DNA of 64,000 bases from a virus (lineage: Duplodnaviria; Caudoviricetes), in the IMG/VR virus record IMGVR_UViG_3300042013_000067, positions 160,001-224,000 of that record. One strand, given 5' to 3'. This document shows positions 18,160-18,266 of this stretch, one piece after another. How positions within the stretch are numbered: position 1 is the stretch's first letter; each line of letters begins with the position of its first letter. The notes under the pieces are model-generated. The model was not told the DNA's origin and searched no databases. It was given only the letters and a program-made list of their open reading frames with translations. The position numbers were made by a program, and so were the translations under genes.

Positions 18160-18266
18160 GGCTAGGAGCGGAGTTCGACTCTCCGCGGTGGTGGCCTTGG
18201 GTAGGCGCCGGTCCCGCTGGGATGGGCTTCGGAAACGACACAGAGGTTCGACCCCTCGCCTAGTCT
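18160..18266 (+). ncRNA. tRNA-Ser(GCT)-like RNA with an extra T-arm hairpin
   Basis: Acceptor GGCTAGG/CCTAGTC; two TTCGAC-loop hairpins; D-like GCC-TTGGGTA-GGC; GCT in the anticodon loop; variable arm TCG-GAAA-CGA. Confidence 0.55.

What the first reader, a model, noticed from the sequence alone, without database searches (positions are those of the whole stretch)
18160..18266. tRNA-Ser(GCT)-like RNA with a second T-arm inserted after the acceptor strand
Seen: acceptor GGCTAGG/CCTAGTC (7 bp), then A and a perfect T-like hairpin GCGGAG-TTCGACT-CTCCGC (18168-18186). After that come a Ser-type body: TG-GCC-TTGGGTA-GGC D arm, anticodon loop CC-GCT-GG (able to zip closed), long variable arm TCG-GAAA-CGA, and T arm GAGG-TTCGACC-CCTC. 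CCA is not encoded. It lies ~310 nt upstream of rtcB. Inference: a tRNA mimic or decoy (for anticodon nucleases or tRNA-sensing defences), a substrate matured by cleavage and RtcB ligation, or a fused-tRNA relic.
Basis: partly seen in the sequence, partly recalled or inferred. Interest (0 to 1): 0.7.

Follow-up and report, generated by a model that had tools for sequence, protein, structure and literature searches.

The report
Chimeric tRNA-like relic in jumbo phage
A giant Pseudomonas phage carries a 107-base tRNA-shaped gene with a second "T arm" that looks copied from the neighbouring asparagine tRNA gene; it is most likely a rearranged tRNA gene that no longer decodes, not a substrate of the nearby RNA ligase RtcB.

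Summary
A 7-bp acceptor-like helix (18160-66 with 18259-65) encloses a perfect T-arm hairpin (18168-86), then a small D arm, an imperfect GCU-tipped arm, a short variable hairpin and a second T arm. This composite occurs once in the 283.6-kb genome and in none of 200 shuffled genomes.

ARAGORN at default settings and the Rfam tRNA and YrlA models do not call it. The extra hairpin plus the six bases after it match the phage's own tRNA-Asn 3' part (317 nt upstream) at 19 of 23 positions. None of 492 unrelated phage tRNAs matched better than 18 of 23, so the hairpin looks like a partial copy.

Only two relatives share the syntenic slot: Noxifer and one metagenome contig. Each holds a different aberrant tRNA-like sequence. 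Neither has the extra arm, and no rtcB was found in Noxifer's genome or on the 1.9-kb contig. No homologue turned up in any collection searched, and no RNA data exist.

My best reading (about 0.5) is a chimeric tRNA-derived relic that does not decode and at most serves as a processing signal. A working tRNA mimic or decoy (about 0.25) is not excluded. Maturation by RtcB is unsupported. The scan had already noted this same stretch from an overlapping window.

The parts
17804..17877 (+). tRNA-Asn(GUU), canonical. Its T arm plus 3' acceptor strand (17852-17874) is the likely source of the extra hairpin.
   Evidence: ARAGORN; Rfam tRNA 64.2 bits; direct-repeat family D2
18120..18159 (+). Terminator-like hairpin (CCTGTGG-GCAA-CCACAGG) and U-rich tract directly upstream. 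TATG at 18157-18160 ends on the first base of the element.
   Evidence: Terminator scan; sequence; phiKZ late-promoter motif TATG with its G as the start site (PMC4666361). [quoted passage not shown]
18160..18166 (+). 5' strand of the acceptor-like helix (GGCTAGG)
   Evidence: Pairs 7/7 with 18259-18265
18167..18191 (+). 25-nt insert relative to a tRNA cloverleaf: A, then the T-arm-like hairpin 18168-18186 (6 bp, loop TTCGACT), then GGTGG. Positions 18169-18191 match tRNA-Asn 17852-17874 at 19 of 23.
   Evidence: Deleting 24-25 nt here is the only single deletion that yields an ARAGORN default call.
18192..18206 (+). U8-G9 equivalent and a 3-bp D arm with a short GG-containing loop (GCC-TTGGGTA-GGC)
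18207..18227 (+). Anticodon-like arm. Stem has a G.G mismatch. Loop is CCGCTGG (GCU at 18216-18), with C instead of U33. It can zip into a GCU triloop.
18228..18241 (+). Short variable-arm hairpin TCG-GAAA-CGA with its flanks
18242..18258 (+). T arm 2: A.G, then GAGG-TTCGACC-CCTC. It sits in register with the T arms of the Noxifer and L096 slot elements.
18259..18266 (+). 3' strand of the acceptor-like helix (CCTAGTC) plus U at the discriminator position. No CCA is encoded.

Best explanation
The element is a tRNA-derived chimera that probably no longer decodes and does not depend on RtcB.

It occupies the last, fast-changing slot of the tRNA cluster of a Noxifer-like jumbo Pseudomonas phage. 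Its scaffold is that of a long-variable-arm, Ser(GCU)-type tRNA: acceptor helix, small D arm, GCU-tipped arm, short variable hairpin and T arm. Between nucleotides 7 and 8 sits a 25-nt piece that copies the T arm and the start of the 3' acceptor strand of an Asn-type tRNA, such as the gene 317 nt upstream. I infer that it arose by recombination or templated insertion among the similar T-arm sequences of clustered tRNA genes.

I also infer that it is transcribed with its neighbours (tRNA-Asn, the small basic-protein gene, rtcB). Because the acceptor helix and T arm 2 are intact, host RNase P and 3'-end nucleases may still cut it out. Its only likely activity is then as a processing signal or a stable by-product RNA.

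Shown: the anatomy, the similarity to tRNA-Asn, and the lack of the extra arm in the two relatives. Inferred: the mechanism of origin, transcription, processing and loss of decoding.
For: 1; positions 18169-18191 match the phage's own tRNA-Asn 17852-17874 at 19 of 23. The best of 492 phage tRNAs from other loci reached 18 of 23.
2. ARAGORN at default, Rfam tRNA and Rfam YrlA do not detect the element.
3; several features depart from a standard tRNA. These are C at position 33, a G.G mismatch in a six-position anticodon stem, a 5-7-nt D loop, a 4-bp T stem, U at the discriminator and no CCA.
4; only Noxifer and contig L096 share the slot, defined by conserved flanks (67 nt at 92.5% identity downstream). 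Their elements are 64% identical to each other. The window's element matches them only at random level (46-49%, against a shuffle mean of 48.8%). Neither relative has the extra hairpin.
5; the relatives' elements are also sub-threshold tRNA look-alikes. L096 scores 23.1 bits against a cut-off of 29, Noxifer's gives no tRNA hit at E up to 1, and the apparent anticodons disagree.
6; the tRNA content of the cluster differs among the three phages (Tyr-Asp-Asn; Asn; none upstream of the slot). This shows frequent rearrangement.
7; no RtcB match in Noxifer's genome and no rtcB on the 1.9-kb L096 contig; no EndA or archease match in this genome.
8; no homologue in 84 RtcB loci, 39 whole phage records, or the pattern scans of viral contigs. 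The metagenome scan used only the leader anchor, and the genome scans used only the T-arm sequence.
Against: 1. Every helix of the element is intact: 7-bp acceptor, 6-bp T arm 1, and the D, variable and T-arm-2 stems. This is more than expected of an old, neutrally decaying pseudogene. Either the rearrangement is recent or the structure is under selection.
2. All three relatives keep some tRNA-shaped element in this slot. Noxifer's even encodes a 3' GCCA like that phage's genuine tRNAs. T-stem pair 51-63 is A-U, G-C and U-A in the three, though with three sequences this is not significant (78 of 500 shuffles).
3. Genuine tRNAs of these phages are also quite diverged (Asn 71%, Lys 83% identity). 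Sequence divergence alone therefore does not prove decay.
4. The copy differs from tRNA-Asn by a compensatory pair in its stem (T-A to A-T). That could mean the hairpin is maintained, or simply that the functional gene changed later.
5. There are no expression data either way.
Confidence: 0.5

Rival explanations
1. It is a working, non-decoding tRNA mimic. The L-shaped scaffold plus a second exposed T loop would bind or distract a protein that recognises the tRNA elbow or T arm. Candidates are a host anticodon nuclease, another tRNA-sensing defence protein, or a tRNA-processing or modifying enzyme. This would protect or regulate the phage's translation during infection.
For: - All helices are intact, and the composite is far above chance.
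- It lies in an island of tRNA-Asn, tRNA-Lys and RtcB. From general knowledge, such a set counters anticodon nucleases of the PrrC, PARIS and colicin E5 types.
- The slot holds anticodon-less tRNA look-alikes in all three relatives.
- There is precedent for tRNA-like RNAs next to rtcB: three YrlA-like Y RNAs beside a TROVE gene and rtcB on another viral contig (PMC4201824).
- T4 encodes the stable RNAs C and D, of unknown function (PMC9697503). That they lie among its tRNA genes is from my own knowledge.
Against: - The two-T-arm layout is a singleton, with no homologue in any collection searched.
- The extra arm is absent from both relatives.
- It looks like a copy of the neighbouring tRNA's end.
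- No TROVE/Rsr partner and no YrlA match in the genome.
- No conserved loop motif that could act as bait was found.
Confidence: 0.25
2. It is an interrupted tRNA-Ser(GCU) gene. The 24-25-nt hairpin after nucleotide 7 would be cut out of the precursor and the two pieces rejoined, by RtcB or another ligase, to give an 82-83-nt tRNA.
For: - Deleting 18167-18191 (or one base fewer) is the only single deletion out of about 6,000 tried that makes ARAGORN call a tRNA at default settings, and the call is always Ser(gct).
- rtcB lies 314 nt downstream.
- Phage tRNAs with unexplained short introns have been reported in Lak megaphages (PMC6784885).
Against: - With acceptor and T arm 2 kept and the interior shuffled, 129 of 200 controls also give an ARAGORN call after some deletion. 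The test therefore has little power.
- No splicing endonuclease or archease match in the genome. By eye and in the predicted fold, the borders show no bulge-helix-bulge.
- The relatives with the slot carry no detected rtcB and have no such insert.
- The 'spliced' product would still have C33, a mismatched six-position anticodon stem and U73.
- The insert resembles a duplicated gene fragment.
Confidence: 0.07
3. It is a functional five-armed tRNA-Ser(GCU) that keeps the extra hairpin in the mature molecule and still reads AGY codons. The odd anticodon loop would help it escape host anticodon nucleases.
For: - Intact acceptor and T arm. SerRS does not read the anticodon (general knowledge).
- Earlier notes of this scan (unchecked) describe phage tRNAs with conserved extra arms and rule-breaking anticodon loops that appear functional.
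Against: - The insert sits at the 7/8 junction, where U8 and nucleotide 9 build the tRNA core.
- C33, G37, U73, a very short D loop and only a 3-bp variable stem, whereas SerRS relies on a long one (general knowledge).
- No detector accepts it.
- No conservation in relatives.
Confidence: 0.06
4. It is a chance structure, or part of a small protein gene (ORF 18158-18304, 48 aa).
For: - An ATG-initiated 48-codon ORF overlaps it.
- The fold energy is not exceptional (z = -0.79).
Against: - The composite motif occurs 0 times in 200 shuffled genomes.
- There are two canonical GTTCGAC T loops.
- No ribosome-binding site precedes 18158.
- The region cannot be aligned with the relatives, although the flanking genes are about 80% identical.
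Confidence: 0.02

Closest known systems
Degenerate or chimeric tRNA genes (pseudo-tRNAs) in phage tRNA clusters
   Same: It lies at the end of a tRNA cluster and carries recognisable tRNA arms. It falls below the detectors' thresholds. One part duplicates a neighbouring tRNA's 3' end. The cluster content differs between close relatives.
   Different: All stems are still perfect. The duplicated piece sits inside the gene, between the acceptor strand and the D arm, not beside it. I found no description of such a layout.
YrlA-type bacterial and phage Y RNAs (Rfam RF02553; Chen et al. 2014, PMC4201824)
   Same: Both are non-decoding tRNA-like RNAs encoded near rtcB. In both, a T arm directly follows the 5' strand of a closing stem and precedes a D arm.
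   Different: The YrlA model does not match. The genome has no Ro60/TROVE match. YrlA has an acceptor hairpin between its T and D arms and only one T arm. A genuine example (L027) scores 43 bits and sits next to a TROVE gene.
'Enigmatic' short introns in Lak megaphage tRNAs (Devoto et al. 2019, PMC6784885)
   Same: A short insert of unknown processing inside a phage tRNA-like gene. In one Lak case the insert itself looks like a tRNA.
   Different: Lak inserts were predicted with eukaryote-mode intron settings, which (general knowledge) place introns in the anticodon loop. They are conserved, often identical, across related genomes. Here the insert follows nucleotide 7 and is absent from the relatives.
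Phage T4 stable RNAs C and D (rnaC, rnaD)
   Same: Small RNAs of unknown function (PMC9697503). That they are encoded among the T4 tRNA genes is from my own knowledge.
   Different: Those RNAs are shown to be expressed. No sequence or architectural likeness was tested here.
mascRNA / MEN-beta tRNA-like small RNAs (Rfam RF01684)
   Same: A weak match (20.4 bits, E 0.15) to 18136-18192: ACCACAG paired with CGGTGGT around T arm 1, which resembles a minimal acceptor plus T-arm module.
   Different: That family is from vertebrates. The score is far below its cut-off of 42.5 bits. The 5' strand is also half of the terminator hairpin, so the match is probably a by-product of the duplicated tRNA-Asn end.

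Membership tests
Canonical tRNA (Rfam RF00005 / ARAGORN) | Detected by the covariance model or by ARAGORN at default threshold | tested here: not met
   no call and no hit at E up to 10. Only ARAGORN at -ps60/70 gives a call, with a mismatched acceptor.
Canonical tRNA (Rfam RF00005 / ARAGORN) | 7-bp acceptor helix stacked on a T arm with a TTCRA loop | tested here: met
   GGCTAGG pairs with CCTAGTC, and T arm 2 is GAGG-TTCGACC-CCTC.
Canonical tRNA (Rfam RF00005 / ARAGORN) | Acceptor strand joined to the D arm by two nucleotides (8, 9) | tested here: not met
   25 extra nucleotides (18167-18191) lie in between.
Canonical tRNA (Rfam RF00005 / ARAGORN) | 5-bp anticodon stem and 7-nt loop with U33 | tested here: not met
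   six-position stem with a G.G mismatch; loop CCGCUGG has C33.
YrlA / Y RNA | Match to Rfam RF02553 | tested here: not met
   only the D arms of the two genuine tRNAs match weakly (13 bits). The positive example L027 scores 43 bits.
YrlA / Y RNA | Ro60/Rsr (TROVE) protein encoded by the same genome | tested here: not met
   no TROVE match in the complete 283.6-kb genome. The L027 record does have one.
Protein-spliced (archaeal-type) intron-containing tRNA | Splicing endonuclease (EndA family) available | tested here: not met
   no PF01974 match in the phage. Bacterial hosts lack EndA (general knowledge).
Protein-spliced (archaeal-type) intron-containing tRNA | Bulge-helix-bulge motif at the exon-intron borders | tested here: not met
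   the borders flank a plain hairpin. No 3-nt bulges separated by a 4-bp helix were seen. This was checked by eye and in the predicted fold only.
Protein-spliced (archaeal-type) intron-containing tRNA | RNA ligase for 2',3'-cyclic phosphate and 5'-OH ends | tested here: met
   RtcB (PF01139, E 1.5e-128) at 18580-19839.
Lak-phage-type tRNA introns | Insert conserved in the same tRNA of related phages | tested here: not met
   absent from Noxifer and from L096.
Chimeric tRNA relic | Part of the element is a copy of another tRNA gene of the same cluster | tested here: met
   19 of 23 identical to the phage's own tRNA-Asn 3' part, above all 492 comparison tRNAs.
Chimeric tRNA relic | No purifying selection on the unusual layout (not conserved in relatives) | tested here: inconclusive
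   Only two relatives exist, and both lack it. However, the window's own stems are all intact.
Chimeric tRNA relic | Not expressed as a mature, charged tRNA | not testable with these tools
   No RNA run holds the stretch.

The most novel reading that the evidence does not exclude
The two-T-arm RNA is a working tRNA mimic of a jumbo phage: an L-shaped decoy with a spare T loop that traps a host tRNA-targeting defence nuclease or a tRNA-handling enzyme. Alternatively, it is a tRNA-Ser whose T-arm-like insert after nucleotide 7 is removed by an unknown cut-and-rejoin pathway in a bacterial virus.
Probability: 0.2. Interest if true: 0.7.

Novelty: new member of a known kind. Interest (0 to 1): 0.3.

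Why it matters
If it is a relic, it mainly documents how quickly tRNA gene clusters of nucleus-forming jumbo phages are reshuffled. It also warns that proximity to rtcB does not indicate a ligation substrate.

If it is functional, it would add a new architecture to the small set of tRNA mimics used in phage-host conflicts. All three Noxifer-like phages examined keep some anticodon-less tRNA look-alike in this slot, which makes a cheap Northern blot or small-RNA experiment worthwhile.

Tried and rejected
**Homologue searches, all negative**
- nhmmer of the 107 nt against 84 RtcB-neighbour loci.
- A single-sequence covariance model, R1, against those loci and 39 whole phage records. It gave only chance-level hits in coding DNA or ordinary tRNAs.
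- Pattern scans of viral contigs with the element's own sequence or layout. One search's 48 hits were tandem tRNAs.
- One metagenome scan with the downstream leader as anchor, which found contig L096.
- Two scans of bacterial and archaeal genomes. The T arm 1 sequence occurs only as a generic T arm of archaeal and candidate-phyla-radiation tRNAs.
- blastn against the phage records.

**Origin from a host tRNA-Thr.** One viral tRNA-Thr shares 21 nt with the hairpin. The phage's own tRNA-Asn is the better explanation.

**'Permuted tRNA genes' on L027.** These turned out to be known YrlA-type Y RNAs.

**ARAGORN deletion scan as evidence for an intron.** Random genome segments (0 of 150) and full shuffles (1 of 150) looked supportive. 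The proper control, which keeps the acceptor and T arm 2, passed in 129 of 200 cases, so I discarded the test as evidence.

**Isotype assignment by global alignment to 187 tRNAs.** No isotype stood out.

**Expression.** No RNA holder is listed for this stretch. Contigs of a second rhizosphere sample hold a close relative, but none was laid over 17890-18654.

**Link between the element and the small ORF.** The conserved leader is an SD-sequestering hairpin belonging to the ORF. It is also present upstream of distant homologues that have no tRNA nearby.

**Covariation in T arm 2 across three sequences.** One covarying pair, not significant.

Full report
**1. The observation.**
GGCTAGG (18160-66) pairs with CCTAGTC (18259-65). 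Inside this helix come, in order:
- A18167;
- a perfect hairpin GCGGAG-TTCGACT-CTCCGC (18168-86);
- GGTGG, then TG;
- a 3-bp D-like arm, GCC-TTGGGTA-GGC;
- an arm tipped by GCU, whose stem has a G.G mismatch;
- a small hairpin, TCG-GAAA-CGA;
- a T arm, GAGG-TTCGACC-CCTC.

No CCA follows. The minimum-energy fold reproduces this layout, but its energy is unremarkable (-48.2 kcal/mol, z = -0.79).

The layout is far from chance. Two T-arm-like hairpins 30-90 nt apart, enclosed flush by a 7-bp helix, occur once in the 283,622-bp genome and never in 200 block-shuffled genomes.

ARAGORN finds only tRNA-Asn (17804-77) and tRNA-Lys (20833-906) in the window and in the whole genome. Rfam agrees at gathering threshold. 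At E up to 10 over 18000-18600, Rfam gives no tRNA or YrlA hit. The only hit near the element is 20.4 bits to the mascRNA model over 18136-18192.

**2. The genome and the neighbourhood.**
The window belongs to a complete virus record of 283.6 kb with terminal repeats. I confirmed that Pseudomonas phage Noxifer is the closest record around this locus.

All genes in the region lie on the + strand, in this order:
- a structured RNA candidate;
- tRNA-Asn;
- about 240 nt of non-coding sequence;
- a terminator-like hairpin with a U tract (18120-59);
- the element;
- a conserved leader;
- a 58-aa basic protein (phrog_7399, function unknown);
- RtcB (PF01139, E 1.5e-128);
- two ORFs;
- tRNA-Lys.

The genome gave no match to TROVE/Ro60, EndA, archease or YrlA.

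**3. Relatives.**
Only two other sequences share the slot. It is recognised by the U-rich tract upstream and a 67-nt leader downstream that is 92.5% identical. The two are Noxifer (L094/L095) and a 1.9-kb metagenome contig (L096). Noxifer's genome gave no RtcB match, and no rtcB lies on the L096 contig.

*Noxifer.* The slot holds an unannotated 94-nt cloverleaf-like sequence. It has a 6-bp acceptor, a D arm, a 6-bp stem enclosing 23 nt, an odd T loop (CUCGUAU) and an encoded GCCA end. ARAGORN calls it only at a relaxed threshold, as tRNA-Met with a 16-nt 'intron'. Rfam gives no tRNA hit at E up to 1.

*L096.* The slot holds a sequence with a good D arm and T arm, but a 5-of-7 acceptor and no clear anticodon stem. 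It scores 23.1 bits against the tRNA model, whose cut-off is 29.

*Identities.* The Noxifer and L096 elements are 64% identical to each other. The window's element matches either only at random level: 49% and 46%, against a shuffle mean of 48.8 with sd 2.4. Yet the small ORF is 80-84% identical, and by that gene the window is closest to L096. The window's layout is therefore derived, and neither relative has the extra T arm.

The tRNA content upstream also differs: Tyr-Asp-Asn in Noxifer, Asn alone here, and none in L096. The cluster is evidently rearranged often.

**4. Where the extra arm comes from.**
The repeat finder pairs 18169-18191 with 17852-17874, the T arm and first six bases of the 3' acceptor strand of the phage's own tRNA-Asn, at 83% identity. 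I compared the equivalent 23 nt of 492 tRNAs from unrelated phage loci. The best reached 18 of 23 and the median was about 11-12. The resident tRNA-Asn reaches 19 of 23. So the extra hairpin is best read as a diverged partial copy of an Asn-type tRNA 3' end.

This also accounts for the weak mascRNA-like match. The copied 3' acceptor strand (CGGTGGT) can pair with ACCACAG in the terminator stem.

Exact-word scans showed the hairpin sequence only as a generic T arm in one viral tRNA-Thr and in archaeal and candidate-phyla-radiation tRNAs, not in a Pseudomonas genome.

**5. Is it an interrupted tRNA-Ser?**
I deleted every possible segment of 1-45 nt and ran ARAGORN at default settings. Only removal of 24-25 nt right after the acceptor strand gave a call, always tRNA-Ser(gct) of 82-83 nt. 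Random genome segments (0 of 150) and full shuffles (1 of 150) rarely pass this test.

The proper control changes the picture. With the acceptor strands and T arm 2 kept and only the interior shuffled, 129 of 200 sequences pass after some deletion. The test therefore shows little beyond the scaffold.

The 'spliced' product would still carry C33, a mismatched six-position anticodon stem, a very short D loop, a 3-bp variable stem and U73. No endonuclease candidate and no bulge-helix-bulge were found. Neither relative with the slot carries a detected rtcB. I rate splicing at about 0.07.

**6. Is it a working mimic?**
Points in favour:
- every stem is intact;
- the island looks like a kit against tRNA-cleaving defences;
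- all three phages keep an anticodon-less look-alike in the slot;
- Noxifer's element keeps an encoded CCA;
- T-stem pair 51-63 is A-U, G-C and U-A in the three, although with three sequences this is not significant.

Known precedents exist. YrlA Y RNAs sit next to rtcB, and I met a genuine case on L027 with a TROVE gene beside it (PMC4201824). T4 encodes RNAs C and D, of unknown function (PMC9697503). Jumbo-phage RNA-repair modules were reviewed by Iyer et al. (PMC7824862).

Against it, this particular layout is a singleton. No homologue turned up in any search. There is no partner protein, no conserved bait motif and no expression evidence. I rate it at about 0.25.

**7. Verdict.**
The most economical account is a chimeric, non-decoding tRNA-derived element. 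It would have been produced when part of an Asn-type tRNA gene was copied into a Ser-type scaffold during the frequent reshuffling of this phage's tRNA cluster. It may still be processed by RNase P and 3' nucleases, because the acceptor and T-arm module is intact. Confidence is about 0.5.

Proximity to rtcB appears incidental.

One small hint about transcription: TATG at 18157-60 ends exactly on the first base of the element. In phiKZ that motif marks late promoters, with the G as the start site, but it is necessary and not sufficient (PMC4666361).

The same stretch had already been noted by this scan from an overlapping window.

Noticed in passing
L094 2905-2998 (NC_041994.1 about 198875-198968): Noxifer has an unannotated 94-nt tRNA-shaped gene in the syntenic slot. 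It has a 6-bp acceptor, a D arm, a 6-bp stem enclosing a 23-nt extension, an odd T loop (CUCGUAU) and an encoded GCCA end. ARAGORN at default and Rfam do not call it.
   Followed up: partly
L096 546-637: A third Noxifer-like sequence (metagenome contig) has a degenerate tRNA-like element in the same slot (Rfam tRNA 23.1 bits, below the cut-off). It shares AGGCNAGCTGGNC with the Noxifer element.
   Followed up: partly
window 18303-18340: A conserved hairpin (TTCGATT 18308-14 with AATCGAA 18332-38) holds the Shine-Dalgarno GGAG of the 58-aa basic ORF in its apical part (z about -3.4). It is nearly identical in Noxifer and L096. Analogous hairpins precede distant homologues in phiRSL1 and Serratia phage KpSz_1. 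An 11-codon upstream ORF (from 18284) is present in two of the three relatives.
   Followed up: partly
window 17390-17402 and 17765-17777: The motif GTAAT[AG]GTATAC occurs exactly twice in the 283.6-kb genome: just before a roughly 340-nt structured RNA candidate (17395-17736) and just before tRNA-Asn. The same motif precedes the tRNA cluster in Noxifer and the slot element in L096. It is possibly a promoter dedicated to RNA genes.
   Followed up: partly
window 17395-17736; L096 about 116-470: The multi-hairpin RNA candidate upstream of tRNA-Asn is also present in L096 (63% identity). It has no Rfam match at gathering threshold.
   Followed up: no
L027 1230-1645: Three tandem YrlA-like Y RNAs (Rfam RF02553: 43, 27 and 20 bits). 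They lie upstream of a TROVE/Ro60 gene and rtcB on a 143-kb viral contig. At first sight they look like circularly permuted tRNA genes.
   Followed up: yes
L059 4992-5109 and 5100-5760: A 118-nt tRNA-like RNA with an encoded CCA and a long internal insert (fold z = -4.4). Next to it is a tRNA gene that appears split by an insert of roughly 500 nt containing an ORF. I did not identify the ORF's family.
   Followed up: no
L034 4246-4331: An 86-nt tRNA-like element (acceptor GGGAAGG with CCTTCCC, 7-bp T stem, fold z = -3.2). It sits about 10 nt after the rtcB match and just before tRNA-Pro. ARAGORN and Rfam do not call it.
   Followed up: no
window 18157-18160: TATG, the phiKZ late-promoter motif whose G is the transcription start, ends exactly on the first base of the tRNA-like element.
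   Followed up: partly
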